Shown: piece by piece, positions 4,113 to 37,202 of the stretch
Numbering within the stretch: position 1 is the stretch's first letter
Layout: every line of letters begins with the position of its first letter
Assembly: GCF_001186125.1 (NCBI RefSeq)
Contig: NW_014040451.1
Location: forward strand, 44,959-87,782
DNA: 42,824 nucleotides
Direction: 5' to 3'
From: Sphaeroforma arctica JP610
Taxonomy: Eukaryota
Made by a program: the position numbers and the translations under genes
Notes under the pieces: generated by a model
Database searches by the model: none
The model's input: the letters and a program-made list of their open reading frames with translations, nothing else
Told to the model about the DNA's origin: nothing

Positions 4113-4437
4113 TGTAGCATCTAGGGACCAGATTATCAAAAAACCAATCCAAATCCCAAACCCAGAATCATCAAATACAGAGTTTTGGAATTAGTATTGG
4201 AATATTTCCGATAATAGAGTCATCAGAAACATTAGGGGTAGAACCGGTAAAATATACTGGGACCCCCGCGTGAGAGAGAAACACTCAAGTAAATCCCGAG
4301 TCTAGTGAAAACACAAATAAAGACTCATTTCGGTTCTCTCAGACTAGGGGCTTTTCGTAGCTGAGGTAACCGTACTTGAGAAGAGGTCTATTGTATCCTA
4401 TTGTCTCGTACCTTTCAGCTACTCTTCATACTCTACA
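4113..4437 (+). repeat. 5' LTR of Gypsy element 1 (325 bp)
   Basis: Direct repeat of 12470-12781 with a 13-bp indel and about 23 substitutions by manual count; TG...CA termini. Confidence 0.95.
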
Positions 4438-5705
4438 TTTTTTACCATATCATTACTTAAATAAGTCAACCAGACACACTACACGTTAAGAAGTTATCGT
4501 AGTTAGTGAAGCATAAGCCAACCGATTCCGAAGAATAGGAGGAAGTGGAAGCAAATAGAAGAAGCTTTATTAAAACCGTGAGGAAGCCAAGGGGGGATCC
4601 AATAAATCACACACAAAAAGGCAAATCAAACAGCACATAAATCCGGCTGGTAGACATCAGCCGTATATAGATATATATATATACAATCTTATAGATACCA
4701 CTATAGAACATTCCACCACTTTAGAACACTATACAGAAGGATACCAAACAAACTCCAACTATCCATCAGATAGAAGAAGGATACACAGATCACACAGAAA
4801 GGGGTAAATCAAACAAAGCAAAATCTCAAATACTACAGGACTAGTAGAACACGAGTCACTATTCAGGCACAGAAAGAGAATCACACAAGAATACTCTAGC
4901 ACAATTGAGGTGTTACACATCTAGCACAATTATTGTGATACACATCTAGCACAATTACTGGGATACACATTGATATTTAGCGAACAACACGCAAAAGCAC
5001 GTTCAATTCAACCAATGGCAGGCTATGTGCACATACAGAGAACATAGTTCATGACGAATATTACTAGCATAGCACATAGAGCTATACGATTCATAGAAAG
5101 ACAAGTGAGCCATCACTGAAATATACAACCAAGTATCAAAGGTAGACAAAGACGGAAAGACGCTCTCAGATCAATCAGATCTCAGAAATAAGCATCTAAT
5201 ACAATCCGTCACACCATTCGAGTGCTCAAATAAATCACAACCAAAAGCAAAGGACGAAACAAACAATGATAACGCAAGACATTGGAGTATATAATCCCTA
5301 ACGACATATCGGTCAGGGTAGAATACGGAAATCAATCAGATTCAACGTACGAGCAGCTAATGTGTCCCACACAGAGCAACAAACATACTATTCACACACA
5401 AGAGTGAAATCTCAACCACAGATTCACATTATAAGAGGAGTTAACTCATACTAATCGCACACGAATACCAAGTAGTCGTGACAGAACATAATGAAAGCTT
5501 GTTGTAACAATCACACTGAATCCACAGCAGTTCAAACAAAGTACTTCACTATAAGTTACACAAGATTGGCAAATGCTAGAAATAGAGCAGGCAATACACA
5601 CGTAAGTGTACGAGAAAGATCACAAACATACATATACACAACAAGTATATCAAATGACAGGACCCAAACAATAGTTTGGCACACATATGTCACCACTTGT
5701 CTGGT

Positions 5706-5929
5706 TGACATCAATAAGACCGAACTTCCTCGGTGACGTCAAAAAGACCGAACTTTCTCGGTGACGTCAATAAGACCGAACTTCCTCGGTGACGTCAATA
5801 AGACCGAACTTCCTAGGTGACGTCAATAAGACCGAACTTCCTAGGTGACGTCAATAAGACCGAACTTCCTAGGTGACGTCAATAAGACCGAACTTCTTCG
5901 GTGACGTCCCCAGGACCGAACATCTCAGT
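5706..5929 (+). repeat. 28-bp tandem repeat x8 (TGACGTCAATAAGACCGAACTTCCTCGG) in the 5' leader of element 1
   Basis: Units start at 5706, 5734, 5762, 5790, 5818, 5846, 5874 and 5902, with no spacers. Related ~30-bp units containing GTGACGTCAC follow at ~5995-6065. Confidence 0.95.
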
Positions 5930-6196
5930 GAAACCACATATGAGAAAATAAATTCTCACATGACGGAATAACACTAGTGACAATAAGTTCTCACGTGACG
6001 GAATAAGCCCAAGTGACGTCACCCATGCCGGAATAAACCCAAGTGACGTCACCCATGACGGAATAAGCTTGACAAACAAACACCGTTTTTATCCCTCATA
6101 AATACAGGGAATAAAGCAACAAGCTACCGGGCAATACAGCACGGTAAACACTTCCAGCGGAAGTGCAGCAAAGCAACAACACTATAACAGTAAGTA

Positions 6197-6778
6197 AAAC
6201 AAATACAAATTTTATTTATTTTATATGAATTATTACTAAAGACGGGGGGGGGGGGGGGGNNNNNNNNNNNNNNNNNNNNNNNNNNNNNNNNNNNNNNNNN
6301 NNNNNNNNNNNNNNNNNNNNNNNNNNNNNNNNNNNNNNNNNNNNNNNNNNNNNNNNNNNNNNNNNNNNNNNNNNNNNNNNNNNNNNNNNNNNNNNNNNNN
6401 NNNNNNNNNNNNNNNNNNNNNNNNNNNNNNNNNNNNNNNNNNNNNNNNNNNNNNNNNNNNNNNNNNNNNNNNNNNNNNNNNNNNNNNNNNNNNNNNNNNN
6501 NNNNNNNNNNNNNNNNNNNNNNNNNNNNNNNNNNNNNNNNNNNNNNNNNNNNNNNNNNNNNNNNNNNNNNNNNNNNNNNNNNNNNNNNNNNNNNNNNNNN
6601 NNNNNNNNNNNNNNNNNNNNNNNNNNNNNNNNNNNNNNNNNNNNNNNNNNNNNNNNNNNNNNNNNNNNNNNNNNNNNNNNNNNNNNNNNNNNNNNNNNNN
6701 NNNNNNNNNNNNNNNNAAACAAATACAAATTTTATTTATTTTATATGAATTATATATAAGACGGGGGGGGGGGGGGGA
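6197..6778. other. Assembly gap (N run 6260-6716) with duplicated flanks
   Basis: AAACAAATACAAATTTTATTTATTTTATATGAATTA..GACGGGG(n) occurs on both sides of the gap, so it is probably an overlap broken at a poly-G tract. Confidence 0.85.
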
Positions 6779-6927
6779 GGCTGAAGAGCGCGCTTTCGCA
6801 CAAGACATATCCTTTGTCTTTATTAATAATCCACTAACACCCACACATCAACGCAGACATCTGAAAATGCCAACAGCAACCAGAACAAGCAGGTAGTGAA
6901 GGCGCGGGTGACGCGGGAGTCAGCCCA

Positions 6928-8400
6928 ATGGGGGAGGGAAGCCCAGGCAGTAGTTCGGGTCAGCCTACACCGGCAGGGGTATCCATCGCAGCGTCAGCAA
7001 TGCGTCTAGAAATAGATAAGAGTATCTGTCAAAGCAATCATGTTCTGGTGAGTCGATTTGTGTCCAAATTGGAACAAACAGCACCGGTGTCCATACCAAC
7101 TCTACATAATTTAAGGGTAGGCATACATGATCAACAGCCAGAGCGTCGTATGCTACTAGTGGATGCGGAGCTTAGACGGCAATATGACCAAGCGATCAAC
7201 GATTGCGGTGATGATGAGGAAGACAAACTTATCCAAATCAGACTGTACATTAGTGAGCTAGAGCTCATGCGTTCAGGGTTAGGCGACCAAATAAACGAAC
7301 CATCTCTTAAGAAATTACTCAAGACTTCAGAATTTCTCAAGATGCCTAAGGATAGTTTCTTTAGATTGGAAAATTCCGAGGATGTCATAGAGTTCACTAC
7401 ACAATGTAGTGATCTATTCTTAGCTACGTCGATGCCACTGTGTCAGTATCCAGCACTAGTGAGAAGACTATTAGATTTCACTGATGCAACGGATAAAACC
7501 AAAGCAGTACTCAATAACATAAGAGACTATGCGACACAAACGACTAGGCACTTCACTGATCCTGAGCAGTTCAATCGAATCATTATTGATCGACTCAGAT
7601 CTTACCCAGTAGACTATCTATTGGAGAAGTTTATCAAATGACATGCAGAATAAAAAGATGAACGTCGAAGTGCGCACAGAGCGTGTGCACAAGACAATGG
7701 CGATTTTACAGGAGCGTTATCGCAACTCAGACAAGGAACCCATACACTTACAAATCCTCAAAGTACAAAGGTACCTAGCACTTAAGTACTATGGACTACA
7801 ATCAGTCGTGGACATCCTAATCAAAGGAGACAAGCAACCTGATGGAAGCGAAGGACACTTGTCTGACATAGAACATACCAAGTTTCATAGACACACATAA
7901 GAATAGCGTCGGTGACGCATGACTGAGACACGCATAAGAATAGCGTCGGTGACACATGACTGAGACACACATAAGAATAGCGTCGGTGACACAAACTGAG
8001 CGTAAGTTAAGGGATCAGGCGCGAGCTGCAAATAAGTGCAACAACGCACAGACGAACACGCAGGTGGAGGATAACTCCACGAACGCCAACAAACGTCATA
8101 AACCAGATAATGGTGTGCACAACCAGAACAAGCAAGGGGGGGCAGACATAGAAAAAGAAAGGAGCACGTGAAGAGCGTACATGCCCTTACGGCCAGGCAA
8201 TGCCTTCCCCACATCGGTACAGCGAATGTCATGAGAAGAAAGCAAATCAAGCCAAGAAGGCTGAACAGCGAGCCAAGAAAGATGTGCAGATAGCAAGACT
8301 ATTCATTACATCTGGCAAGGTGGAAGACATCACATAAGGTGATGAGCACTGAAAACACTGGTGGGCGGAAGCAAATATGATTGACCTGGCTGACATACTC
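6928..8400 (+). pseudogene. Gag-like region of Gypsy element 1 (frameshifted)
   Basis: Consecutive ORFs 6928-7641, 7643-7900 and 7956-8171 lie between the 5' leader and the protease. Assignment is positional. Confidence 0.65.
7889..7998 (+). repeat. ~37-bp tandem triplication within gag
   Basis: AGACACACATAAGAATAGCGTCGGTGAC(G/A)CATGACTG occurs about three times. Confidence 0.85.
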
Positions 8401-8469
8401 AATGTATTTACAGATGAAGAAACGTTGTTAATAAATGCAAATGATATAAATTATCAACCTTTAACGCTT

Positions 8470-10260
8470 ACACATTGATATGCGAATCAATGGCAACACA
8501 TACAATGCACTAGTAGACTCAGGTGCATAACGCTCATGCGTGGACCAAAGTGTAGTTTCAGAACTATATCTGTCTGTTAGAGAGCAACCAGGGTAAATAC
8601 AACTAGCACAAACAGATGCAAGAATACAACGTACTGTACAACAGAAGTTTGTGACATTAACTATGGAGGGAGAAAGACCTCTCAGTGTTTTGAAGAATTG
8701 TACTTACCAGACAAGAAGACACCAATACTTCTAGGTATGGACATTTTTATCATACATAGGTATATACATAGCAGGTTAATCAACCCACTCATACCAACAG
8801 ATGCAAAATGGGAATCACTCCTCACACCACATGAAGAGGACCCAGAGCACGAACAAGAAGGTTTCAGAGAGTCACGTACAGACCTCCTGGACATCAATGC
8901 GAATATACCTCCTGATGTTCATTGCAACCTATCAGGCTCCACAGTCACGGTAGCTGCAAATGAAATCAACGGCAGACAAATGAGGCACGCTAAAGTCAAC
9001 TTTGTTCCGCACAGATACATTCCGCAAACGGACGAGAATGTGCAACGATGGCTTAAAGATGGCCACATATACAAATGCGACAAGCCCACAACGGTAAACT
9101 TGCCGTTGTTATCAACAGGTGAACATGACCAAACAGGTCTACTTAAAAAGGTCAGAACATATCTAGACTTACGTGAGATCAATTATCAATATGAGCAGGA
9201 CAAGTTTGTGTTACCAAAAATAAAGGAAGTGTTACACAACTTACAAGGAGCACAGTTCCTTTCAAAGCTAGATCTTACAGGAGGATTTCACCATTTCCTA
9301 GTGTACGAAGTAAGCCAACACTTCTTCACATTCTCATGGAGAGGAGCAAAATACTCATTCTAGTCCGCGCCGTTTGAGCTACACTCACTCACAGCACAAT
9401 TCCAGAGAGTCATGCCGAATCTGCTCGTAGATATCAAAGGAGTGCAAGTGTATGTAGATGACATAGTCATTGCGAGTCTTACAGAAGAACGCCGCAAAAC
9501 AGTTCGTGAAGTAATCAAGCGACTGAATAGCGCAAACTTCCGACTCAATCACAACAAGCGTGCCTTTGCGATCAAAGTGGTCAACATTCTTGGGGTGAAA
9601 GTCACCACACAAGGACTCAAAGCAGACCCTGAAAAACAGAAAATAATGATGGATTGGCCACTAGCCAGAACTAAAAGAGATCTGCACAAAGCAGTGAGAC
9701 TAGCAAATTCCATGCGAGACCATGTCCCCAACTTTGCTCACACAGCGAAACACTTTCGGAACATAATGAAAGTGAAAATGAACCAGAACATATCCATGTT
9801 ATGGACTCCGGAACTGATAAAGAAATGAGAAGAACTCAAAGAAGCCATCGCCTGTTCAGCGACGCTATCATATCCTGTTGATGGGGTACCGTTTCAAAAT
9901 ATAAACGACGCTAGTGACTATGGCATAGGAGGGTGTTTATTTCAAGTCATCGATGGAGTTAGAAGAGACATTATATACTTCTCAAAAGGCTTGAATCCAG
10001 CACAACAACGCTATGGCACAAATACCAAAGTGCTATTAGCGCTGGTATACAGCCTGGGACACTTCTCCGAATACATCAAAGGGGGGGGGGAATAACACTG
10101 TGGACAGATCACAAAGCGCTCACGCAAATGAACAGTCAACAGATGTTACACCCAATGCTGGCCAAGCGGATAGCAAAAAACGTTCCACCACCATTTCTCC
10201 ATCATACATGTCCCAGGCAAGGACAGCCAGATGGCAGATATGTTGTCACGTCTCCATGAA
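8470..10260 (+). pseudogene. Element 1 pol: aspartic protease, reverse transcriptase, RNase H
   Basis: NALVDSGA (~8505-8530), PILLGMD, KVRTYLDLREIN, SKLDLTGGFHH, VYVDDIVI (9448-9471), DASDYGIG (~9908), DHKAL, HVPGKD...ADMLSRL; several stops and frameshifts. Confidence 0.93.
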
Positions 10261-10373
10261 GATACTTTAGAATTAAAGAGTCAAAAGTATTACAACAGGC
10301 GAATGAGGCAACACATAATAGCCAAGAGTACACCACCTTGGAAACGAACATGCCCATAACCATATCGGCTATA

Positions 10374-10769
10374 GACTGGATCTTACATCCCAGATTCTAT
10401 CAAGAAGCGGAACAAAGGTTTGGAAAGTGCACAGTAGTTAATGTTTGCATCGGCACACAATGCGCACACAGATAAATACTACACCAAAGTACAGAATGCG
10501 CTACAACAAAAGTGGGCGCAGGAAGTTGATGCATGGGCGAATCTACCATGGGAACTCGTACCTGATGTCCTTGACAAAGTCATTGAAGAGGCAACCTGCA
10601 TCACGATATGTGTACTATATTACTCCAATACCTCGTGGTTTCCAAATTTCTTGTCTTTGCTAGAAGAAGACCCGATGCCAGTGGAAAACACAAACAATAC
10701 GTTCCTCAAAGCGGCAAGAAGGCTTACGGCAAGACCCCATTGGGTGTCACATTAGTCGCAATGATAGGA
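10374..10769 (+). pseudogene. Dam-like DNA amino-methyltransferase domain in pol of element 1 (between RNase H and integrase)
   Basis: Reads DWILHPRFYQEAEQRFGKCTV/(fs)MFASAHNAHTDKYYTKVQNALQQKWAQEVDAWANLPWELVPDVLDKV...CVLYYSNTSWFPNF...NTFL/(fs)SGKKAYGKTPLGVTLVAMIG. This fits the phage Dam (PF05869-type) and DIRS MT pattern; the catalytic NPP[YFW] motif reads NLPW here. Confidence 0.82.
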
Positions 10770-10879
10770 GTTAAGTCTCCATACTTTGACGCAACGCGGG
10801 AACAACCTGCTATATACGTTGCAGCGTCAGAACCAGTTCATTCTGGATACGCACCACAGGCAAAAGAATATGAGACACA

Positions 10880-11760
10880 TGTCAACATCGTTGAGCAATA
10901 CCACAACTTGGGACATTACACTCCTGAGGAAACAGTACACAAGTTGCAAACAGATGGACATGATTGGGCTGATATCCAACAACATGTACACAAATTCATT
11001 GACGGATGTATACCATGTCTCAAAAATAAAATACACAAAAATGGATTTCACCCCTTACAATCAATTACAGCCGCATATCCAAGCGACAGAGTCCAATTGG
11101 ACACCATAGGGCCACTATTGGATTCCAATAGAAGACACACATACGTGTTAATATACCTCGACGTATATTCATCGTACGTCATTTTGAGTCCAATGATGGA
11201 CAAATCAGCGGCTACCATAGCCCACACACTGGTACCAATTATGTGTGAACATCCGTATCAACCTAAAGTCTTAGGCGCGAACGAGCGATCACATAGAGAC
11301 CTCATGCCACTGCTACGGAAATTCGTGGAACAGAATCCAGGTAACTGGTCACGACTTCCATTCGTATATATGGGCCTCAATCTGCGTACATCCAGAAAAG
11401 ACAAGTCACCGCGCTTTAATGTGTACGTTGGTCGCAGACAGAATCAACTCACGGACTACAATGTGCCAGTGACCGCACCCAGTACAACAGAGCGACTGCA
11501 AAATCTAAAAGACGCCATTAAGCCACAGCTAGAGAGCAATGTTGCACAATATCAAAAGAAGATGCGAGCAGTATACGATCAAAAATACCAACAGAAATAT
11601 GTAAACTTCCAGGATGGGGACCTTGTCTTGGTCCGCTATCAAGGTGAAATGAACAAGTTAACAGCACCAAATGGCGGACCATACTAAATAGTATCCAGAG
11701 AGGGCAACGGGTATTTTGTCTGTACCCTTGTTGGGACTAAAGCCCCCGAATATACTGACT
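10880..11760 (+). pseudogene. DDE integrase of element 1 (internal deletion around the second Asp)
   Basis: HHCC zinc finger HNLGH...CIPC, RVQLDTIGPL, YLDVYSSY, PY.P...GANER and GPY in ORF 10608-11687; the SDNG segment is missing. Confidence 0.9.
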
Positions 11761-11861
11761 CGATCAGTGATGAGCTACTTGGCCTCGTAAAAAAGGCCAA
11801 TGCTCCGGAAGCATTTACTTCCAACAATCACGTACAACCAAACAAAGAGACTCAGTTCTCC

Positions 11862-12101
11862 TTGATAGTCGACGACAGGCCGTCCATCCGAGGTGATGGA
11901 TCCCAGGAGTACCTACTGCAATGGACAGATGAGAAGCGTACCTGGACGCATGAATCAGACATCGCATATGCTGTTGTCATTACAACATATCGTCAACGCC
12001 GGAGACGTAAAAGAAGGCAGTCAAGGCCAAAGAAGCCAGCGACAACAAGCACTGATGAAAGATCAGCGAGCCACAGACACCGCACGAGGCGGGGGACCTA
12101 A
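11862..12101 (+). pseudogene. C-terminal chromodomain-like module of element 1 integrase
   Basis: IVDDR....G..EYLLQWTDEKRTWTHESDI matches the chromodomain I..R...EYLVKW....TWE pattern and is followed by a basic tail. Confidence 0.75.
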
Positions 12102-12469
12102 GCAAGTCTTACTGATACCACAGGACACTCCCACTTTTCGCGCCTAGAAGCATGTTCCCCCCCCACACCAGAGAGACAAGGACCAGAGACTCGGTTGTAG
12201 AGCCACCGTTGAGATGCATTTTCCTAAGCCAAGTTGAGATCAACCGAGAGCACCGGTCAAGACTGACCCCGATGAGCGTGGTAGAGGACTCCTGCTATAG
12301 TAGAAATTTAACGGTAATATGTAATAGATAACGGTGGCAGGTTTTTCATCTTATGCCCCCTAAAGGACAAGATTTTTCCTGTATACAAACACCAACCTCT
12401 AGATAATCTAGTACTGTAAGATGTCACTTTATACTCCTACGCAGGCTAAAAAGCATAAAGTTGGGGGGC

Positions 12470-12781
12470 TGTAGCATCTAGAGACCAGATTATCAAATCC
12501 CAAACATAGAATCATCAAATACTGAGTTTTGGAATTAGGATTGGAATATTTCTGACATTAGAGTCATCAGAAGTATTAGCGGTAGAATTGGTAAGATATA
12601 CCGGGACTCTCGCGTGAGAGAGAAACACTCAAGTAAATCACGAGTCTAGTGAAAACACAAATAAAGACTCATTTCGGTTCTCTCAGACTAAGGACTTTTC
12701 GTAGCTGAGGTAACCGTACTTGAGAAGAGGTCTATTGTATCCAATTGTCTCGTACCTTTCAGTTACTCTCCATACTCTACA
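12470..12781 (+). repeat. 3' LTR of Gypsy element 1 (312 bp)
   Basis: Direct repeat of 4113-4437, preceded by a PPT-like G-rich tract and followed by the ATCG duplication. Confidence 0.95.
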
Positions 12782-13789
12782 ATCGGACTGAGTGTTCGAC
12801 TGAGTCGAGATCCTGGTTCATGACGTCCGGAGAGAGTGGGGAGAGATCGGTATAAGGCAATGTCAAGCAATCGGGTGATGGTTGAAGATAAGAGGCCTGA
12901 TGGGGCGAATCATCGTGAGTAGGGATGTAGGCAGGAGCAGGCGTCTAGTGGTTAGAACTGGCGGAAGGGCTCACAATGGGTGGAGGGGCAGTCGGCGTGG
13001 GTGGGAGACTGTCGTATACATCTGGAGGATGATTAGCAGGCAGCAGAGGGTGTGACCATGGGTCACGATTGAGCGGCGGTGGGGCATACGGACTTGGAGG
13101 TCGGCGCGGGTGTGGGGCAGGAGGATGAGACCATTGACCGGGAGGGACAGGTGGGGGGTAATACGGTTGTAGAATAAGGCGTGGGATGTGGTGGTTAAAA
13201 CGTGTCCACTGATTAGAGAGAGGAGGCCCTGGTGTATAGTGCTGAGGATGTGGCAAAGGATACTGAGCCATATTGGGAGGGGATATAGGCATGGGTCGCG
13301 TGTAGGGAAGTGGGGGGGGTCATAGGAAATTGTTGGAAGTATTGAGGGCCAGGGATCCATCCGGGACTGCGAGGAGGTGTCGAGGAGTAGGAAGGCGTAG
13401 GAGTGTATATGACCTCATCCGACTGAGGTGGACGTGGGCGGTCATCGGGGACATGCGAAGATGGTCTAGGCATGTCTGTCGGGAGAGGGTTAGGGGCAAG
13501 AGCAGGTCGAGGGGTTGGATTGGATGTACTGGCGTCGAACGGGGCAGGCAGTTGAGCATCAGCAGGCTCAGGATGTATATCAGCTTGAGGACTACGACCG
13601 GGGGTGGGTGGTAAAGTGGCATCCTGAGGCTCCAGTTGTATGGCATTTTGGTGCAGCGAGTTGAACAGGCCAAGTAGGGGGGGGGGGGGGGGCGAACAAA
13701 TGGGATACTAGTCATGTCAGGATCAGATGTGAGGGACATTCAGTCAACCGGGATGTCATAGCTAGAGGGAGTATCGGATGAAGATGCCA

Positions 13790-14520
13790 CGTTACAATCG
13801 GCGGACCATCCAGCATTACATTCGGTAAGGAACTTAACGGTCCTTGGTGTAAGTTTGGGCTTGGATGTCAAGGGTTTGGATCCTATAATAATCGAGGGTA
13901 GAGTTGGGAGCCCGATCAAGAAGGCCGCCATATCCAGCTTTGGGTAGGTATTTGTGGCGGCCTTTTGCCTTGTCGCCCTGGAGTTTGTAAAGAACGATGC
14001 AACCAAAACGTGCGCAAAGATCCCGAAAATCATACCGTTGGAGGAAGGTCTCGGCGGGTGTGCGAAATTTATTGCCTTTAACAAAACAATTGTTGCGGAG
14101 GTTGCATGCCCAGAGGAAAGTATCACTCCATCCAGGTTTAGGCATGCCAGCATCGATCAAGAGTTTGCGGACATATATATTGAGCATATCATGAGGACGC
14201 TCTACCTTGGCATTGCGTTGGGGGTGTGGGGAGGGTAAGGAGGGAGCTGCAGAAGTTGCATCTTATGGTCGAGGACGAGGTCCGTCATAGCAGTGCTGTG
14301 GAATTCCTTAGCGCCGTCAGCCACAAGTATATCCGGTTTTCAATTACGAGCAATCGAGATGTGAAGGCGTTTGACATGTTGGGCAATATTTTGGTGGTCT
14401 GGGAGTAGAGAATGAAGACTATATCGGGTCCAGCATCGAATATACTGAGTGTGTATTCGCTTCCATATCTGTCGGGCTCGATGGAGCTCTGTGTATTCAC
14501 GTGCCATCGCTCACTAAGGC
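13790..14520 (-). pseudogene. Copia-type DDE integrase
   Basis: RWHVNT...Y.LSIFD, ILVADGAKEF, TPQRNAKVER, DAGMPKPGWSDTFLWACNLRN, TPAE, ARFGCIV; frameshifted. Confidence 0.88.
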
Positions 14521-14691
14521 CGTAGACCGTGATAGTAGGCGTGGGAAACCGTGATAGTAGGCGTGGGAAACCGGGCCAGCTTGTATGTTGCCTTCGAGAC
14601 ACGTGTGGCAGTGCTTCGAGAACTCTGGGTGAAGTTTCACGAAGTCAATGGCAGCCTGGAAGTCTGGACCAGGAGTAGAGTGTGTATCGAT

Positions 14692-15099
14692 GCTGCCGAG
14701 GAGGACAACAATGATAAATACCCAAGTGAGTTTACCAACTGTGGTAGTGCCGTGTCGTTGGAAGGTAGTAGTAGTATTTTAGACGATGACTGGCTGGCCT
14801 TGAATGTGAGCCATAAGGGCATTCCACCAGGTGGCTTGAAAGCGAACGGGAACAGCCATCACAATCCGGGATCCGCAGCGTGCGTTTTTATTGATAATAT
14901 CCTCGATCAAAGACCATGGGGAACAGGCATATGCTAGCTCCTTGGTGAGATACACCTCAGTCCATCATTTGAATACGCCACCACCTTCAGGGCTAGCAAA
15001 ATAGGGAAACTGAGCATTGCTTGGCACGATGTCTATCGTAAGATGAACGCATAAGAATTCACAGGCCGTTTTAACTAGTGCAGGGTCAAACATCCAGGA
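14692..15099 (-). pseudogene. Dam-like methyltransferase domain in the Copia pol (between protease and integrase)
   Basis: One frame through two stops reads SWMFDPALVKTACEFLCVHLTIDIVPSNAQFPYFASPEGGGVFK*WTEVYLTKELAYACSPWSLIEDIINKNARCGSRIVMAVPVRFQATWWNALMAHIQGQPVIV*NTTTTFQRHGTTTVGKLTWVFIIVVLLG. It is collinear with the Gypsy MTase domains over its whole length. Confidence 0.75.
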
Positions 15100-15289
15100 T
15101 TTCGTGTTGATATACTGTGGAGGTGGGTGGGTAAGTTTTATGATATTCTTTTTCGCCATGCAAAGAGTAGTAGATCGTTGTCGATGACCGGTGGCACGGT
15201 GGTATGCATAGTAAGTCATGGTAGTTTTGATTGCATGACCTTCAAATAGACTGAGTATGGTGTCCACGGGCGGTGTGAGTAGAAGCCGA

Positions 15290-15610
15290 AGTGCGTTGTA
15301 GGGAACATAGTAGCCGCCCTTTTGCGTGGGATGGTGAGTTTGTCCTTATCAAGTTGGAGTAGGCATTTACGTTTGTGTTTCGAGAATATGAGTTCAAACC
15401 CCGAGTCTTGTAGGCTGTTTTGAGCGATAATAGCTTAGGTTAAGTCTGGATTAAGGTATGTTAGGCCGAGACCGGGGAGTTGACCACGCTCCGTGACATA
15501 TTTAACATTTCCGTCAGCAAGTTTAAGAGGGAAATTGCCAGATGTTATGTCTACATTTCTTGCTTTAGAGTTCATGAAATTAACTGTAGCACCTCCATCT
15601 ATAAATTAAG
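15290..15610 (-). pseudogene. Copia-type aspartic protease
   Basis: Minus strand reads FIDGGATVNFM...LKLADGNVKYVTERG...YLNPDLT*AIIAQNSLQDSGFELIF...C. Confidence 0.8.
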
Positions 15611-15687
15611 AGTATATGTCAATATTATCTGATTGTAAGGATATTCTGCAAACTGTGATTTGTATCACAATATAGGGATAATTTTAT

Positions 15688-16600
15688 TTATTTCAAAAGA
15701 GATAAGCTGCAAGTGGAGTTGACAAGGGGGTTCAGTAGAGCATCCATGCTACGGGCAAGAATTTTGGGCGCTCGTTCACGTGTGCAGTGGGCCGCCCGCT
15801 TGATATGAAGATAGTGGATTAAAGCTGCTTTCGTAGAGTCGGGATAATCTTGGGAGCGTGGGTCGATAGTTTTATCAAGTTGCCTTTTCAACGTAAGTGT
15901 TGCATGTTGAGACCGCAGCGACCACAATTCTTGGGACAATATAAAGAAGTGTGCTTGTCGTTACAGCACAGGTAGTATTTATTGCCATTCGAAGTGCGGT
16001 TGCGTTGAGTCTTAAGTTCCCCAATCATGCGTACAAGGTCAGCAATGGAGGAGTCAGTAGAGGTTGCATTGAGTGCATTTACTGTGGAATTGCTTAAGGG
16101 ATAGAAGAGCGAGCAGTATAATGCCCTTTCTCCAAGTATACATATAGGATGTCGATGTCAAGGTTGTTACGAGTTTCGTGGGTTTGGAGATAAACATTGT
16201 TGATCTGATTGCGGTCTGCCTGGCCAAGCTGGTTGATAAATAGATTTTGTTGTACGGCTGGACTAAGTGTAATACCTTGTTCAAAACCAGTTTCGCAGGC
16301 ATATTCACATCTGGTTGCCCTCGTGGCGAAGAGATTCGGTAGGACCACGAGTGAGAACCGCAAGGTAAGCAGTGTCGACAGTGCAGTGGATGGGTTGTAA
16401 TTGATGCTCAAACTTGGATTGAAGGACATTGTAGAGGCTCCGAGGATGTTCACGTTTGGTGAGACAGGGCCATGCTTACACGGAGTTTAGGATGCATTGA
16501 ACTGAGGACGGATGTTCGGGCCTTGTGGCAAGTGCCGTTAGCGATGACACGTTCGATGTATGTTTGTAGTTCCACCATATATTCCTTGTAGTCGCTACGA
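15688..16600 (-). pseudogene. Copia gag region (degenerate, Cys/His knuckle remnants)
   Basis: Lies upstream of the protease; degenerate Cys/His clusters such as YLCCNDKHTSLYCPKNCGRC near 15910-15975. Confidence 0.55.
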
Positions 16601-16772
16601 TCGTTAGTACGTGTAGCTAAGATATGGGCGTAAGTTTGCGGTGGATTTCAGGGGTCCTTTGGAAATTTTTGATCAAATTTAAGAACAGAGGTAAGTATAA
16701 AAGTCAGGCTAACCAGGCTGACTATCGATGTCAATAAGTTATAGATGAGCTAAAGATTAGGGGATTTAAGAC

Positions 16773-17475: not shown

Positions 17476-18234
17476 ATAGGGACCCGTTATATGTGATTTG
17501 AAGCACATAGACTCAAAAAGCTCACATGAATTGTACAAGCGAATAGAAGAAACGGGTTTCGATCATATAATGGCCTCAATGCTTATATTATATTCTCTTA
17601 GACAAAGTATACTTAGACTTTATAAGTTACTCGGTTACTCTATTACGTTTGGGTTTAGGTCCTTGAGGTCCCCGATGGTGGATGGGGCGTTTCTTAGTGC
17701 CTTTAGGAGGTACATACATTCCATGGTCTTCGAAAATAGAAATGAATAATGTCTGCGGATAGACCTTGATTACATCAGGTCGTTTGTTTTTAGGTAAGAT
17801 CGCGTCTGCGTCTGCCTTGTTCTTATGTAGACGCTTACGAAACTTCTTATTAAAAGCCTTCAATACATCTGGATTATCGAATGCCGATGGAGGTAGATCG
17901 TATTTTGCGCCATCTGCAAACTCCGTTGTGTAGTAAGTGATACTCTCATGTATGTACTTCCACAGCATTTTTTTAAACTTGTAAAACATAAGAAGTGTAG
18001 TAGCTTCACGTGTGCGACGAAGGATGATTTCTGTCGTTGGAATTTGATGTGAACCGATATTAAGAGTACTTGAACCGACAACATTGTTAACTTCATGAGT
18101 TCCGCTCTTCTTATCGGCCACTCTCAATTAACTGGGTACAGACACAAATGAACGAGACACCGGATTCAGTCACTGGTACAACACCCGCTCACTATTTCAG
18201 GGGCCGTCTCGGATGGTGTTCATTTGGTGGTTTC

Positions 18235-18635
18235 AACTGGACCTATTCGACATATTATTGTATGTCGCCAAAGAGTCTTCTGGACTGCACGGGTACCCTG
18301 ATAGATGAAAGTATCTACCGCTCTATCCACATATATGGGCTCACATTGTATCATCGATATCAAATGTGGTAGCCATTTATCTGAATGTCTTAACGGGTAA
18401 CACAACGTGATGGTAGCATCTTGTATATGAACATATTTCAGCAATTGTGGTATCAGCAACCACGGTGGATTCGCCCATGCGTTCTCATCGGATAAGTCGA
18501 TTTGAAACCCATCACCGTCTGGATGTTCCAGAGTCCGGTATCGCGGTATGATGTGCTGCAAACATGTCGATGGTATGTGGTCCATGTATATTGTCTGCAA
18601 TTTTAAACCACCTAGGATTCGCCATCCAATCCAAT
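18235..18635 (-). pseudogene. Dam-like methyltransferase domain of element 2
   Basis: DWMANPRWFKIADNIHGPHTIDMFAAHH/(fs)YRTLEHPDGDGFQIDLSDENAWANPPWLLIPQLLKYV...TLCYPLRHSDKWLPHL...DTFIYQGTRAVQKTLWRHTIICRIG; intact NPPW at 18460-18471. Confidence 0.88.
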
Positions 18636-23700: not shown

Positions 23701-24124
23701 CTCCTCCAGAATAAAGGTAGGGTGTTGAGAATCCACTTGCGTGGTCTCTAAGTCTGTGGTGTTTCCAGACTCCTGTCCTGCTTTCGCATGAGTGTCATAA
23801 GTGCGCTCATGTGCGTTAGATACACCTGACTTATTTAATAGTCGCATTATAAGTGTATATGCTTCGGGATTATCTTTCATTAATCCCTTTAAAAATAGGG
23901 TTTGAAAGACTTCGGGCTTAGACTTTATGTTAATAAACAGAGTCCTAGCTAGAGACTGACACTTCTTAACTGTAGTGTCATTAGTAGATTGTATTTCTTG
24001 TGTACAGACTTCAAGTGCTGTGTTGCCTTTGAACTGCTTAACGTTCAATATATTGGCGAGTGGAATCTCCGATTCTTTGACCTTGTTAAGGAAGGTCTCA
24101 GAAGGGGTCCATTTAGTTGTTCCA

Positions 24125-24620
24125 ATGGGACCTACACGACATATTATAGTATGTCTCCAGGGCGTCTTCTGGACGGGTCGGGTACCCTGATATAGGAAAG
24201 TATCTACTTCCCTATCTAAATATATTGGCTCGCATTGTATCATGCTTATTAATTTATTGAGCCATGGATCTTTAGAGTTTTCTTTTTCTTAATAAATCCG
24301 CAGTCTCCCTGAATTGGTTTAAATTTTTTCTAGTTTTTAACCTCCCATTCAACCTACTCCGTAATGGGCAACACAACGTGATGGTAGCTTTGTGTATATG
24401 AACATAATTTAGTAATTGGGCAATTAAATGCCACGGTGGATTAGCCCACGCATTATGTTTGGAGAGGTCTAGTTGAAAGGCATCTCCTAAAGGATGATTT
24501 AAAGTCCTGTAATTCTTAAGTTGTGCATTATGATGTGCAGTAAACATGTCAACTGTATGTGGCCCAAATATCCTTTGAGCCAGTTCAAACCACCTGGGGT
24601 TACATTTCTAATCAGCGGCT
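24125..24620 (-). pseudogene. Dam-like methyltransferase domain of element 3 (split by an 80-bp insertion)
   Basis: NPRWFELAQRIFGPHTVDMFTAHHNAQLKNYRTLNHPLGDAFQLDLSKHNAWANPPWHLIAQLLNYV..TLCCPLRS[insertion]KDPWL..MIQCEPIYLDREVDTFLYQGTRPVQKTPWRHTIICRVG; NPPW at 24431-24442. Confidence 0.9.
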
Positions 24621-29392: not shown

Positions 29393-32300
29393 CGGTAATA
29401 CAACATGTGGCATCAAGTGTCAACATCACCCGAGACTCACCCATTTGTTGTATCCTAGTATTTTGATGGAAAACATATCATAATAGAAAACCCATTTGTT
29501 GTATCCTAGTATTTTGTTTGACTATTATACAGATACAATTATCTACAATTGTGCTTCAGCAGATACCAGGTTTTACAACCGTAATAGCCTTTAAACGTTA
29601 ATACGGTTATAATTTACGTTAACATGTGCTTTTACAATAGGAACCCGCTGATTTTAGTTAAGGTAAGCAGTATACTGGGAAGACATGGCGAGCTACGAGT
29701 CGCTCTTCTAGAGGTCTATATTGAAACCATCCTTGTCAAGGACTGTCCAGGACACTGTAGCACCCTTAGTGGTTAGTTGAGTACAATTAGATAGCATAAT
29801 GCCCGTTTTCTCTAAAATGGGCCCATAGCCTAAAGAGATCTATGAATCGATTTACTCAAAGGCTAAGCTTTATTGTTAATGCTAGGTACAATAATATTAT
29901 TTTCAAAAAAGATAAGCTACAATGTATGTATGTTACAATGTATGTACATATGGTATGGCTCTCATAGCCGTTGTAATGGTTCGGGAAAGATCGATGGGAA
30001 GAAGTGGTCAGTAGATTTTAGGTAATCCTTTCCGTTTATCTCGTGTGTTCTTATGTAAGCGCTTGTTCCATTTCTTATTAAAAATACGAAGGAAGTCGCG
30101 AGATTCACGAAACGCATCGGAGGTTAGCCAAGCTACTGTCCCATCCATAAAACGTGTCTTGTAGTAAGTGTAACCGTCTTTTAATGTTTTGTCTATTATA
30201 TCTTTGACTTGTGACTCCATAACTGGGACATCAGAATCAAATGAGCGAGTGAATGAGAGTTCGGAGGTAGGATTACGGCGAGTGTTTAGATTAGTTGCGC
30301 TAGTACCATCTATGTTATTCACTTCGTAAGTATCACTCTTCTCATCATGGTAGGAAATAACAAACGATTCAATTGTCTTAGAAGAGAGTTTTGTAACGTT
30401 GGCTTTGCGATTTATAATTTTAACATAATCGCCTACTTTGAACTGAACAATGTTCTTAGTGTTATTCCATCAATCATACGCTTTAAGTAGGACACGATTT
30501 TTGTGCTCGAGTCAACAGGGGTAAACAACGTTTTGCATATGCTAGATCTTTTGTAGCCATGGAGTAACATGTTTCTCGGGCGCAGTTTTGTCAAACGTTG
30601 CTTGTAATTCACTATAGCGGCCAAGGAAATAGTGAAACGGGAGTGTTCCAGTTTGAGGATTTATGCAGTTATTCATTTGAGTCTGAACCCATTTCTAATG
30701 ATAAGGCCACATATCCTCAACGTCATTCAATGCGGTACGCAATAGCTTCTTTAGTTCTCTATGATGTGTCTCATTTGCACCCTGCGTTTGAGGTTTATAA
30801 GGAACACCACGCCTATGGGTCATACCTGATACGAGTATAAGTGCCTCCATTACGTCGGTACAAAACTCACTACCGTTATCAGAACATAGTACTCGGGGGA
30901 AACCGAAGTCATTAAAGACGTGATAGCATAACTCTGCCACTGTTTGCGGGCGTTTGTTCGGTATTACTTTATATACATCGCCAGTGTACTTGGATCGCGG
31001 GAGTTTAACCAAATCGACTATGACTCGGCGCATCGGTTGGTCTTCTGTCACACCTTTTAGGTGGCATTACCTCGACTGCACCCTTGTTGGGTGCATGTGT
31101 TGTACGAGTCTTGAGCTTTTGTTCAAACTTCTTAGACTCCTCTAGTTTCTAAGAACTCGGTTGAGGGTTTCCACTTAGTGGTACCTGCAAGACCGATGCG
31201 AAAAACAATGGTGTGTTTCCAAGGCGTCTTCTTAATAGAATAGGATCCCGGATACAAGAACGTGTCGGTTTCACGATCGACATAGATAGGCTCGTCTTGT
31301 ATCATATTAATTAAATCACGTATCCATGGGTCGGAGCTACGTAAGGGACAATACAGCGTCATGGTAGATTTAGTAATATTAACATAATTTAACAACTGTG
31401 CAATAAGTTGCCAAGGTGAGTTAGCCCACGCATTATGCTTTGATAAGTCAAGTTGAAAGGCATCACCTTTAGGATGAGTCAACGACCTATAATCAGAAAC
31501 CTGTTTGTTATGTTCTGCGGCGAACATATCAATAGTAAATGAACCCAATCTTGATTGAGCGAGGTTAAACCATTTCTTATTAAGCATTCAATCGGTTGCT
31601 AATAACTCTTTAACTGTTTTCTGGTAGTCAGGGACAAGTCGAGAGAGCATGTCAGGAAGATGATTATATATTCCTGGTATGTGTGTAATGTTAAAAGCGA
31701 ACTTAGCAATAATGTCATGCCAGCGGCTCACCAACTGTGAATCAGGGTTCGTGTCCTTTAAATATGTTACAGACTTTTGATCACAGGCGACAGTGAAGTA
31801 ACTTTCTTAAAGGTAGTCTTTAAACTGTCTTAGCGCAGTGTCAATAGCAAGGAGCTCTTGTTTGACGGTAGGGTAATTCCGTTGACTCTTATTATAACTC
31901 GGCTAAAGAATTGTATATAGGTAATGAGAAAGACGAGGTACCAAATCCGAGAAGAAGTTGACAAACCCACACACAGAGTTCACATCTCTTTCAGTAATCG
32001 GTGTTGATAAACCAACAGAAATTAATTTTTGTCAGGATCAATTTCTACCCCTGCTGCAGATACCTTGTAACCAAGTAAGTGTATTGTATCTTTAGCAAAA
32101 GAGCACTCGTCCTCGTTAATCTTAAGTTTGGCATGGTTTAGTCGCTTTAAGACTTCCTTAACGAGTTTAGTATGTTCATGTATTGTCTTTGTAAAGATAA
32201 CTATATCATCTAAATATATCCGACAGGTCCGTAAATAGTTCCATCATAACTTGTTGGAAGAAAGAAGGTAACAAGTGTAAGCCTTCAGGTGCACCTTTAA

Positions 32301-33015: not shown

Positions 33016-35693
33016 CCTCAGACTTCAAAACAAAGGATTAAGAAAGGATAGAGGAGGATTGCCAAGACTACTTGAATCGTAAGCTTTGACTTGTACTTTT
33101 TGGACTAGGATTTTTGGGCTCAGGGCTTTCCGGGTTTGGCCAAGGATTTGTGGAATCTTGAGATTGCCGGCTACGATCAAATCGGGATCAGGACAGGAAA
33201 TTAGGGTTAGGATCTTATAAACTCGAAAAAATAAAAATAAAAATATGAAGGAATACAAAGAATACAAAAATAAATATTATCTAGAAGTAGAGAAAAAGAT
33301 TACAATCCATCTGAATAATGGGAGTTGTCATCCAACAAAGATACAAACTGTTCGGGAGCAAATATTTAGTTCGAAGCTCTTGTACACTCTATTTTTGTTT
33401 TTAAAAAACAAGCAAATGTTTATAGTAGTTACATTATTTATTTAGTTCGTTGGCAACTTGGCACTCTCTCTTCAGTCTCTTCTTGTTGAGTCTACTCTTC
33501 ACTTTCTTGTGACGTCTTTCCCCCCCCCGAGCATCACAAAAGGACACAGAGTGTCAGAGACTCAGAGTCACAGTATCAATTTATCATCACAGTGAGTCAG
33601 TGACAGGTCTCGAGCCTCGGCTCCCTCGTGGCTCGTTGTCCGTGCTCGAGAAATATAAAAAAAAAAAAAGAGGCCTAAAGCCTACAATCAGTAGTTCAGT
33701 ACTAATAAATATGTACTAGTAGACCAAAGTCCAAAAGTGAAAAGTCTCTATTCTCAAAAGTCCTTTCTCCAAAGTCCATAGTCCAAAGTCCTTCGATCTC
33801 GGATGTATCGATAAATAAATACACTTTCGACTCTTTGAGTAAAACATCGACTCACAACTCACAAGAGTCACAAGTCACAGGTCACAACTCGCTGAGTAAC
33901 AAAATGCCAAATGTGGATACATACTGTATTTTGCTCTGACCAGGTGGCAGGTAAGTAAACGACATGGTCTTTTTGATATAAAATACCCTAAAACCGAAAC
34001 GGCATGGCTAAAAATAACATGTCGGTCGGTAATCTATGGTCGTTTATTGTTCCCAGCTGACATGGAGTCTTCGCTCTGACTACATATCTTACCAACAATG
34101 TTTACTTAGCAGGTCACCTTCAATATCGGCTAGCTATATGTAGTCCTTCGGACGTTAGTTCGATCCCCTATATTTTAGTTATATTTCTATTATTCTTCAC
34201 TAGTAGAGGGTCATGTGGTTACCGAGCAGGTTGTGTATATAAATAACTATATAACAAGTTCAAATATATAAATAACCATTTCAGCAAACGATCTTTTAGT
34301 AGTATTTATTTAGTAAATAGAGTCTAGTGTAGAGTTGTTATATGTAAAGCCAGACAACCGCCACAAAAGGATCTATGTATATAAACGACCATGTCGTTTA
34401 TTCGTTTTTCTAGTAAGTGTGTACAATCAAAATATTCCGACCTCGTCGATGTCGTTTACCTGGTCAGATTTTACAATGATCGAGACTCAAATTCCATTGC
34501 CCGATGGCAATCTAATGCTTTTTTATTCTTTCAGTCCCAGCCTCCCAGTCCCTACTCCCTAAGCCCAAGGCCCCAGGGCTCAGATATCTATTTTTTCTTT
34601 TTCCTTTCCCCAACTGTTTTTTATATATATATTTTTTATCTATAGCTTTGTGTTTATATTTTATAAAAAACTTTACATAAGATCTAAAAAAAAGAATTTT
34701 AGAAAATTGTTTGTTTATATATATCAAATACATTATCGCCTTTTTATATATTTTATCAGTTGTTTGAAATTGCTTGTACTTTGTCAGCATATTTTTCTTC
34801 TTTAAATTTTATAAATGTTTTTAAAAACAATTAACAGAAACAAAATCATAGCCTTCTAAAATATACAACATTTTTTTCTTCTTGTTTCTTTTCAAAAGTA
34901 TTTAAAAAAAGTCAGTGTTATTTTAAAACAAAAACTTTAAAAGGAAATGGTAGTTATGTTATTGGGGGTTTAAAAATACACACACTATGATACATAAATA
35001 TGTATATACATGACTTCGTCACTTCGTTGATCTATTTGTTTACAAAAATATTTATCTCTTTTTACTTCTAAAGAGTAGAAGGCTGTTTCAATTCAGTCTT
35101 CAGTCTTCTTTTATAATTTTGTTTGTTTCGAATTTTTCGATCATTGCATCGTAGTTTTCTGAATATACACACAAGGGAGAGAGTGCTTTCTGGCTACGAA
35201 TTTGAGAAAGTCTGAGATTGTCATCGCAGTGATATTGGCAATTTGGCATATATGCGCCATGTTTATTGCACAGTGCACATCAAATATTTACTCTCGACTC
35301 ATTTTTAGAGGGGTATAAAATACTTTTGTCGTTATTTTCTTCAGTTTTTATAGTTTTCATTTGAAATACAAACGCTATATTGAATAGAACCAAGAGACAA
35401 ACAAGAACAAAAGCATGAACAAACGAAAAATCAATTTATATATTTCTTGTTTGGAAACCAAAACTATACATGTTTCAACATTACAATAACCAATTCTTCT
35501 GACACACTACAACCACCCTACCCCACGCACACTCGTAGAAACGCATCCTTCCCTCAAATAGCATGCATATTTGCGCTTTCATGCTTCATCTTTTAGGATT
35601 CAGCCATAAAGCATCGAGGAAAACAATTGCAAAACGGGGTATCGAAGGCAAGTTTAAAGAATTAGTAGCGGTCGTAAAGTAGATGATTGCAAA

Positions 35694-37202
35694 ATGAGCA
35701 TCAAGAAAATAATTAAAATATTTCGCCGAGAAGGTTCGAAAGGAGGGTCAAGAGTGGAAGGAGAGCTTGTCAACGATGTTTCCGGAGATGAACTTGTAGA
35801 GGGGTCGTTAGAAAGTGCTATCACGGACAGTAGTGTACGCAAGGTACCCGACCAAACATTGCTCACGCTTAAAGTGCGTGATTTACATTTACCTGCAGAA
35901 CCATGTTTACCCGCATCTGAACATTTAGATAAAAACCAACCTCAGTCAAAATTTAGTAGGGACGTACCAGTACAACAACGCCAACAACAAGTAGCGTCTT
36001 TCCGCCGGAGCAGAGTACTTACTTCCCTAACCACTAACCAATTCTCAAGCTTAGCAACTGAAGAGGATGGCTTACCTGCAGCATTTAGTCCAAGAGCCCG
36101 GCGCATGTCATGCCCAAGTGTATCTTCGCCTGAAGTTGGGCGTCTACATGCACCTACTAGTACTCTTTCAACAAAAAATAAGTTGCCGATAGTTCGACCC
36201 AGATCAATAATACGTCCTACGGCAAGGGCTTTGCCCACTCCGAGTTTAGCTCGACAACGAAGTCCTTCTCTCATAGCAGATGATTCAGATATACAGGCAC
36301 ATATGGAGCAATACATATCGGAGCCTCCCGTGTCCGATCGAAGTCCACCGCAATCGAAAGTCTTGGGCAACTCGTCAATTGACGAATTCAAACCACGCCG
36401 CTCGACCGGCAGGCGTCTGTCATGCCCAAATGTGGACGTTTCACACTTCTACAATCCCGATGTGCCGGCAGTTGAATCTCCGATTTTAAGTCCTTTGATC
36501 AAACACCGAGATGGGATATCTAAAACACCTGGAATACCAATTTCACCGAGGTCTGGGGTAGCAAGAGCAAGGCCTCTCTTACTTACATCAATCGTTCACG
36601 ATAGTACTATAGCTCCACTGCAAACGACACGTACACAGGAGACAAAACGGAAGCCTCCTTCTACGTGGCGAAAGCTCTCGGAATATGGCCGTCGACCGAC
36701 TTGTCCAATTAAATTTAGAAATATTGCTCGAAGAAACACATTTGCTCGAAGAAACACATCGATAGAGTCTGCTTTAAAAAAACGTACACACCTTATGGTC
36801 ACTGAGCGCGGTGTAACGGACAATCACAGCCCTGTGATTGGCAGCGTCGTATCATCGACACCCAAACCCCAACCTCAAGGGTATGACGATAAAGGTATTG
36901 ACGATACTGATATATTTAGAAGAAAAGTGCATAAAAGACGGGTCAAGTTCCTCAATTCACATACGGTACATCATACATTCTGCGCTGATGAGTATGACCG
37001 CTCTAAGCCGCCACAACGGGAGGAAGACATAGAGCCCATTATGACTGTATATCGTGAGTTGATGAAGTACAAGATCACCGAGATGGTAGTTCACCAAGAC
37101 GCACTACAATACACCAATCACCATTTGTCTCGTAGGGATGAGGCAGCCCACAACATTATGATGGGTACTATTCGGGCCATCATCAGTGAATTCACAGAGT
37201 AG
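35694..37202 (+). CDS. Intronless 502-aa largely disordered protein with C-terminal Phactr/Bni4/neurabin-type protein phosphatase 1-binding module
   Basis: RVxF motif (RRVKF) followed by V..TF..DEYDR and REL..YK..EMVVH...YTNHH, resembling the Phactr C-terminus (ELNEFKSTEMEVH...TRFH). The Ser/Pro/Arg-rich N-terminus has repeated RRxSCP sites; no RPEL motifs seen. Confidence 0.8.
   Translation: MSIKKIIKIFRREGSKGGSRVEGELVNDVSGDELVEGSLESAITDSSVRKVPDQTLLTLKVRDLHLPAEPCLPASEHLDKNQPQSKFSRDVPVQQRQQQVASFRRSRVLTSLTTNQFSSLATEEDGLPAAFSPRARRMSCPSVSSPEVGRLHAPTSTLSTKNKLPIVRPRSIIRPTARALPTPSLARQRSPSLIADDSDIQAHMEQYISEPPVSDRSPPQSKVLGNSSIDEFKPRRSTGRRLSCPNVDVSHFYNPDVPAVESPILSPLIKHRDGISKTPGIPISPRSGVARARPLLLTSIVHDSTIAPLQTTRTQETKRKPPSTWRKLSEYGRRPTCPIKFRNIARRNTFARRNTSIESALKKRTHLMVTERGVTDNHSPVIGSVVSSTPKPQPQGYDDKGIDDTDIFRRKVHKRRVKFLNSHTVHHTFCADEYDRSKPPQREEDIEPIMTVYRELMKYKITEMVVHQDALQYTNHHLSRRDEAAHNIMMGTIRAIISEFTE

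What the first reader, a model, noticed from the sequence alone, without database searches (positions are those of the whole stretch)
14692..15099. The same methyltransferase domain is also in the Ty1/Copia element, again upstream of integrase
Seen: between the Copia protease (15290-15610) and Copia integrase (13790-14520), the minus strand reads in one frame SWMFDP...LTIDIVPSNAQFPYF...LTKELAYACSPWSLIEDIINK...IVMAVPVRFQATWWNALMAHIQGQPVIV*NTTTTFQRHGTTTVGKLTWVFIIVVLLG. This aligns block for block with the Gypsy copies: LSKHNAWANPPW.LI..LL / TLC.PLR....W...L / IQ.EPIY / DTF..G...V.KTPW..TI..RIG, and with element 1 ENTNNTF...GKTPLGVTLVAMIG. The ORF track hides most of it because of two stops. I did not see a clear HxRLGH pre-integrase motif between it and the integrase core. 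Established: Copia and Gypsy have different pol orders and are deeply diverged. Inference: one MTase module has been exchanged between, or independently captured by, two LTR superfamilies in the same genome, both times N-terminal to integrase. This suggests an MTase-integrase unit acting at the pre-integration complex and a host-specific selective pressure.
Basis: partly seen in the sequence, partly recalled or inferred. Interest (0 to 1): 0.92.

Follow-up and report, generated by a model that had tools for sequence, protein, structure and literature searches.

The report
Adenine methylase inside Copia integrase
A dead Copia-type jumping gene, likely from the animal relative Sphaeroforma, carries a DNA adenine-methylase-like domain so far described only in other retrotransposon groups, and it likely sits inside the integrase's zinc finger, where it would travel with the element's DNA to new insertion sites.

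Summary
Observation confirmed, placement corrected. The segment is a homolog of the window's Gypsy Dam-like (N6-adenine methyltransferase) domains: 63 bits against a Gypsy-only profile, best of 2000 shuffles 7.6; about 30% identity; two stops, no frameshift. The host element is Ty1/Copia (RVT_2 RT, Copia-type integrase), split by a nested Gypsy. The domain likely lies inside integrase, not upstream: HxxxxH (15201/15186) precedes it and CxxC (14610) follows in the same frame (joint match reached by 2 of 3000 shuffles). Its codon bias matches the Copia and differs from the Gypsy elements, which argues against a recently inserted fragment. Gypsy 'DAM-LTRs' of Sphaeroforma arctica are already described (2026 preprint, whose main text never mentions Copia). 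A Copia-borne Dam was not found in my literature searches; this scan had noted only C5-cytosine methyltransferases in Copia elements of other genomes. Limits: one decayed copy, no second copy shown to carry it, altered motifs (DIVP, CSPW), donor (Gypsy or DIRS) unresolved, activity untested. A swapped 'MTase-integrase unit' is not supported: the methylase moved alone. New variant of a known kind.

The parts
14659..15099 (-). Dam-like (PF05869-type) N6-adenine methyltransferase homolog; motif I reads TIDIVP (15039), motif IV YACSPW (14931); stops at 14967-14965 and 14781-14779
15184..15204 (-). YHRATGH: likely His pair of the Copia integrase zinc finger (GAG-pre-integrase), same frame as the methylase, 29 aa before it
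   Evidence: best PSSM match between PR and IN core, 2 of 300 shuffles reach it; alignment
14599..14610 (-). CHTC: likely Cys pair of the zinc finger, same frame, 16 aa after the methylase
   Evidence: best PSSM match, 23 of 300 shuffles reach it; joint test 2 of 3000
15304..15321 (-). KGGYYV: likely start of the pre-integrase region, just after a frame change from the protease frame
   Evidence: read by eye
15330..15620 (-). Copia aspartic protease (FIDGGAT at 15605), with stops
   Evidence: motif read by eye, not a family hit
13837..14573 (-). Copia-type integrase core and C-terminal part (ADGAKEF 14321, NAKVER 14214), frameshifted; 22-nt tandem duplication at 14573-14530
12782..13740 (-). 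Pro-rich IN-RT linker, shared in kind with relative P0008
3314..3918 (-). Copia reverse transcriptase (RVT_2), one frameshift, YVDE at 3409
   Evidence: Pfam above cut-off
15936..16640 (-). Copia gag remnant with Cys/His knuckle at 15968
   Evidence: read by eye
15671..15907 (.). High-copy repeat (solo-LTR-like) inserted between gag and protease
   Evidence: depth up to about 170 times that of the flanks
4113..12781 (+). Gypsy element E1 nested in the Copia between IN and RT; LTRs 4113-4437 and 12470-12781, 89% identical; target duplication ATCG; own Dam at about 10375-10770
18223..18631 (-). Gypsy E2 Dam domain (NPPW), frameshifted
24112..24616 (-). Gypsy E3 Dam domain (NPPW), in two pieces
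31174..31599 (-). Gypsy E4 Dam domain (NSPW)

Best explanation
This is a decayed Ty1/Copia retrotransposon that carries a Dam-like adenine-methyltransferase domain in frame in pol, likely inserted into the loop between the His pair and the Cys pair of the integrase zinc finger and likely taken from co-resident Gypsy DAM-LTR elements. Shown: homology, frame, Copia identity of IN and RT, Copia-like codon bias. Inferred: the domain was part of the working Copia pol for a long time; protease processing could not release it without breaking the zinc finger, so it would stay on mature integrase and enter the nucleus with the cDNA. Most likely job (inferred, borrowing the preprint's model for Gypsy DAM-LTRs): putting 6mA on the element's own reverse-transcribed DNA so that host AMT1 keeps the new copy in transcription-permissive chromatin. 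I put residence in a working Copia at about 0.75 and a catalytically active writer at about 0.5.
For: Profile score 63.3 bits vs shuffle maximum 7.6. Whole Gypsy pols match the Copia only over the Dam domain plus one weak IN-core stretch, with no RNase H or linker spill-over and no DNA-level match. Third-position bases match the rest of the Copia (p 0.75; four-fold sites p 0.94) and differ from Gypsy Dam (p 0.0012; 0.0021) and other Gypsy ORFs (p 0.0017; 0.00085), although E2-E4 lie on the same strand. No frameshift in about 146 codons while the copy has at least five frame changes elsewhere (by eye; RT one confirmed). HH and CC halves are each the top PSSM match, in order and in the methylase frame; joint score reached by 2 of 3000 shuffles; 191 aa between His2 and Cys1 against about 20-34 in 10 ordinary Copias. 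The ML tree places it among the S. arctica-type Gypsy Dams (87/88), sister to the E2/E3/E4/P0001/P0002 clade (82/84). Preprint: DAM-LTRs in S. arctica have more 6mA and more transcription than other LTRs.
Against: One copy only: no other contig reaches 80% identity over PR-MT; 0 of 36 integrase relatives carry the domain, and the two nearest (P0004, P0008) are fragments that do not reach that region. Zinc-finger halves score below every reference (15.5 vs 21.9-47.8; 10.3 vs 16.7-31.1), CC alone is not significant, and HMMs of the halves missed them; without the insert 45 aa remain between His and Cys, longer than usual. Motif I DxFA reads DIVP, motif IV NPPW reads CSPW; 21 of 44 near-invariant columns kept against 29 of 35 in this copy's RT. 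Two stops do not exclude long neutral decay (45 of 500 simulations gave two or fewer). Tree support is unstarred, the branch is long (1.55), no DIRS sequence was included, and placement outside all Gypsy Dams is not rejected (AU p 0.051). The preprint found no activity of any such Dam in E. coli.
Confidence: 0.6

Rival explanations
1. Copia-resident but catalytically dead: the domain was kept as a DNA-, 6mA- or SAM-binding module on integrase, for example to steer integration toward or away from 6mA-marked chromatin.
For: Both catalytic motifs are altered; Cys (TGT) at the Asn position is two substitutions from an Asn codon, so unlikely to be simple decay; long branch; 12 of 28 deeply conserved columns kept vs 18 of 28 in E1. 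A position on integrase suits a targeting role (inference).
Against: The intact Gypsy pol P0001 also has CPPW, so Cys occurs in open elements; by another column set the Copia keeps as many as L002 (28 of 67 each); 12 vs 18 of 28 is a small sample; part of the loss is decay of this copy.
Confidence: 0.2
2. Independent capture straight from a DIRS element rather than from Gypsy; same outcome, different donor.
For: The preprint counts at least four DIRS-to-LTR transfers. YACSPW resembles a DIRS-type YAFPP motif (recalled; not found in the supplements searched). AU tests do not reject a position outside the Gypsy Dams (p 0.145, 0.051).
Against: Highest identity is to the window-type Gypsy domains (29-33% vs 20% to L002), including the C-terminal TF..G....K..W block.
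Confidence: 0.25
3. A passive fragment of some Gypsy or DIRS element that landed in this one Copia copy and never worked there.
For: This copy has taken two other insertions (E1 and the 15671-15907 repeat); no second copy shows the domain; an insert in a zinc finger could be disabling; stop count inconclusive.
Against: In frame, same orientation, ends at the domain boundaries, no LTR or flanking donor sequence, no DNA-level donor in the window; Copia-like synonymous bias. The two true secondary insertions are LTR-type repeats, and E1 has a target duplication.
Confidence: 0.15

Closest known systems
Ichthyosporean DAM-LTR lineage (Fernandez-Moreno et al., bioRxiv 10.64898/2026.05.21.726589; whole main text read; supplements not seen)
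   Same: Dam-like domain in pol of an LTR retrotransposon; reported from S. arctica, Abeoforma and Pirum; the window's Gypsy E1-E4 fit that description
   Different: All DAM-LTRs classed there are Ty3/Gypsy-like (RVT_1 tree); 'copia', 'ty1' and 'RVT_2' occur 0 times. Here the carrier is Ty1/Copia, the domain likely sits inside the integrase zinc finger, and motif IV is CSPW rather than NPP-aromatic
DIRS1-like MT domain (Pfam Dam PF05869; PMC3266345 and PMC3783388, passages read)
   Same: Same domain family; function unknown there too
   Different: DIRS pol is RT-RH-MT with a tyrosine recombinase and no protease or DDE integrase
Retrotransposon-borne cytosine DNMTs (de Mendoza et al. 2018, PMC5890265; passages read)
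   Same: A DNA methyltransferase captured into pol, repeatedly, across retrotransposon classes
   Different: C5-cytosine enzymes unrelated to Dam; in LINE, DIRS and Gypsy; that paper says Symbiodinium Copia lacks DNMT
Phage N6-adenine methyltransferases (Edwardsiella phage eiAU, Aeromonas phage APT65)
   Same: Weak tblastn hits of the Gypsy E4 domain (E 0.2-0.4); aligned D.xA and NPPY motifs
   Different: 16-17% identity to the Copia segment; stand-alone genes

Membership tests
Ty1/Copia | RVT_2-type reverse transcriptase | tested here: met
   52.4 and 43.1 bits, cut-off 31.6
Ty1/Copia | Order PR-IN-RT | tested here: met
   PR 15605, IN 14570-13840, RT 3918-3314 on one strand once nested E1 is set aside
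Ty1/Copia | Copia-type integrase | tested here: met
   36 hits; 13 of the 18 scanned carry RVT_2 or GAG-pre-integrase, none RVT_1
Ty1/Copia | Paired LTRs, PBS, RNase H | tested here: inconclusive
   No LTR pair for the Copia in the self-comparison; nothing recognisable after RT; copy looks truncated
Eukaryotic DAM family (PF05869-like) | Sequence homology over the whole domain | tested here: met
   63.3 bits vs shuffles up to 7.6; the profile's members hit PF05869, as does L002
Eukaryotic DAM family (PF05869-like) | Direct Pfam Dam match | tested here: not met
   0 families at E<=1
Eukaryotic DAM family (PF05869-like) | Asn-Pro-Pro-aromatic catalytic motif | tested here: not met
   CSPW in this decayed copy; intact P0001 has CPPW, P0002 NPPW
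Eukaryotic DAM family (PF05869-like) | Methyltransferase fold | tested here: inconclusive
   Only the Gypsy E4 domain was folded; mean pLDDT 44
Eukaryotic DAM family (PF05869-like) | 6mA deposition | not testable with these tools
   Also negative for known members in E. coli (preprint)
DAM-LTR as defined in the preprint | Ty3/Gypsy-like RT (RVT_1) and organisation | tested here: not met
   RT is RVT_2 and the order is PR-IN-RT; works like a DAM-LTR at most, not a member of a described lineage
DAM-LTR as defined in the preprint | Host with AMT1 and 6mA | tested here: inconclusive
   Host inferred from named S. arctica relatives; the preprint reports 6mA in S. arctica; no genome held

The most novel reading that the evidence does not exclude
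The first Dam-type adenine methyltransferase in a Ty1/Copia element, passed across LTR superfamilies from Gypsy within one 6mA-using host and built into the integrase zinc finger, making an uncleavable methylase-integrase fusion that marks or reads 6mA at the integration step.
Probability: 0.4. Interest if true: 0.8.

Novelty: new variant of a known kind. Interest (0 to 1): 0.62.

Why it matters
It would extend the DAM-LTR strategy from Gypsy to the other major LTR superfamily, in a species already shown to favour such elements, and show that Pfam-threshold screens miss cases (this segment has no Pfam hit; the preprint screened at E 1e-5). The function of retrotransposon Dam domains has been open since DIRS. 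An insertion inside integrase, if intact copies confirm it, ties the domain to the pre-integration complex and so makes 'acts on cDNA or target at integration' testable against 'acts during reverse transcription'. It would also mark a loop of the Copia zinc finger that tolerates a 150-residue enzyme.

Tried and rejected
No whole genome held, so other genomic copies could not be pulled. Word-based homolog searches with the Copia IN and RT ORFs for longer proteins: 0 of 114 and 0 of 194 candidates. Copia IN alignment against metagenome and viral contigs: 0 of 74 and 0 of 53 pattern hits confirmed. Dam queries against viral contigs (0 of 25, 0 of 5, 0 of 48) and prokaryote genomes (0 of 28). No remote homolog search was run with the Copia methylase segment itself, so intact Copia-borne relatives could have been missed. 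Fold of Gypsy E4: pLDDT 44, not searched further; PDB by sequence: one chance hit. Atlas with E4: unnamed eukaryotic clusters at 0.95, one set with Dam in 14% of members. Second laying of contigs did not list the record coordinates of the related contig, so its length across the methylase site is unknown. No RNA holder listed. HMMs of the zinc-finger halves were too weak (script ended in an error before the shuffles). First tree had two mis-cut rows and a long-branch phage row; rebuilt without phage F341. Grouping the Copia domain with CPPW-bearing P0001 and E4 is rejected (AU p 0.011). Literature searches for a Copia-borne adenine methylase listed no title or abstract start describing one; one search was off-target.

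Full report
Observation. It hits all four Gypsy domains in the window by tblastn (E 8e-11 to 9e-6; next hit 0.72). A profile built only from Gypsy domains scores it 63.3 bits against a best of 7.6 in 2000 shuffles. The Gypsy domains are Dam-like: Pfam PF05869 on E1 (above cut-off), E3, E4, P0001 and P0002 (below cut-off), with weak hits to phage N6-adenine methyltransferases. The Copia segment has no Pfam hit. Contigs from three runs span 13707-15739 in one piece with 0-2 differences; the fourth, shallow run covers it in pieces.

The carrier. RT at 3918-3314 is RVT_2. The integrase ORF finds 36 proteins; 13 of the 18 scanned carry RVT_2 or GAG-pre-integrase and none RVT_1. IN and RT are separated by Gypsy E1, inserted with 89% identical LTRs and a 4-bp target duplication. 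Named relatives are Sphaeroforma arctica JP610 proteins (P0003, 90% over 34% of E4; P0004, 50% to IN; P0008), so the host is likely S. arctica or close kin (inference).

Where the domain sits. Ungapped profiles from 10 ordinary Copia integrases give YHRATGH (15204) as the best His-pair match and CHTC (14610) as the best Cys-pair match between protease and core, both in the methylase frame. Shuffles reach them in 2 of 300 and 23 of 300 cases, and the ordered pair in 2 of 3000. His2 to Cys1 is 191 aa, against about 20-34 in the references. Against this: both halves score below all references, HMMs missed them, and 45 aa remain without the insert. In intact Gypsy pols the HHCC is whole and lies about 140-190 aa after the Dam; in L002 the Dam precedes RT. 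So the methylase moved alone, and its place differs between elements.

Resident or stray. Whole Gypsy pols match the Copia only across the Dam domain, with no flanking donor sequence and no DNA-level match. Third-position and four-fold-site composition match the rest of the Copia (p 0.75, 0.94) and differ from Gypsy Dam (p 0.0012, 0.0021) and other Gypsy ORFs on the same strand. The segment has no frameshift, while the copy has at least five frame changes elsewhere (by eye). Stop count alone does not decide (45 of 500 neutral simulations gave two or fewer). No second copy could be examined: no other contig reaches 80% identity over PR-MT, though one single-copy relative matches patches of IN and the 5' end, and 0 of 36 integrase relatives carry the domain.

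Donor. In a 10-row tree the domain falls among the S. arctica-type Gypsy Dams (87/88), sister to E2/E3/E4/P0001/P0002 (82/84), on a long branch. Positions outside are not rejected (AU p 0.145, 0.051), grouping with P0001+E4 is (p 0.011). No DIRS sequence was available, so direct capture from DIRS stays open.

Mechanism. Established knowledge: Copia pol is cut into protease, integrase and RT, and the HHCC motif binds zinc (recalled). Inference: an insert between the ligands would remain on mature integrase and accompany the cDNA. The preprint proposes that such Dams put 6mA on reverse-transcription intermediates, recruiting host AMT1, and reports more 6mA and transcription on S. arctica DAM-LTRs, but no activity in E. 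coli. I adopt that as the most likely role. The altered motifs (DIVP, CSPW; 21 of 44 conserved columns kept vs 29 of 35 in RT) leave a dead, binding-only module as a real rival, although the open Gypsy pol P0001 also has Cys in motif IV.

Known and new. Gypsy DAM-LTRs of S. arctica are described in bioRxiv 10.64898/2026.05.21.726589 (main text read in full; supplements not seen); it has no mention of Copia, classifies by RVT_1 and screens at E 1e-5. Searches listed no Copia-borne adenine methylase. Earlier notes of this scan report C5-cytosine methyltransferase folds between protease and integrase in Copia elements of other genomes (unchecked), none of the adenine type (0 hold all words).

Verdict. 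Real homology and a likely Copia-resident domain with an unusual placement, resting on one decayed copy. New variant of a known kind; interest 0.62.

Noticed in passing
L002:2568-9800 (+); same element in L001: Open 2411-aa Gypsy-like pol with order protease - Exo_endo_phos nuclease (PF03372) - Dam (PF05869, WANPPW) - RT - RNase H - integrase. An LTR-type element with both an AP-type nuclease and a Dam ahead of RT; I did not see this order in the preprint's main text.
   Followed up: partly
L002:10984-12837 (+): 618-aa ORF after that pol with a PHD-like Cys pattern and a possible HxD...H dioxygenase motif (read by eye); no Pfam hit.
   Followed up: no
P0001 (82% to window E4, 31174-31599): Open Gypsy pol whose Dam motif IV is CPPW instead of NPPW; the shared Cys with the Copia domain looks convergent (AU p 0.011).
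   Followed up: partly
window 4113-12781: Dam-bearing Gypsy E1 is nested inside the Dam-bearing Copia, and E2-E4 follow in the same 30 kb: a cluster of five Dam-carrying elements.
   Followed up: partly
window 15671-15907: High-copy solo-LTR-like repeat between Copia gag and protease.
   Followed up: partly
window 5645-5952 and 37051-37869: 28-nt tandem array inside E1's 5' region, and 170-190-nt repeats of the 3' end of the 514-aa ORF at 35658-37199.
   Followed up: no
P0003: S. arctica gene model that joins a Gypsy Dam C-terminal piece to what looks by eye like a DIRS-type RT fragment, suggesting DIRS elements in this genome.
   Followed up: no
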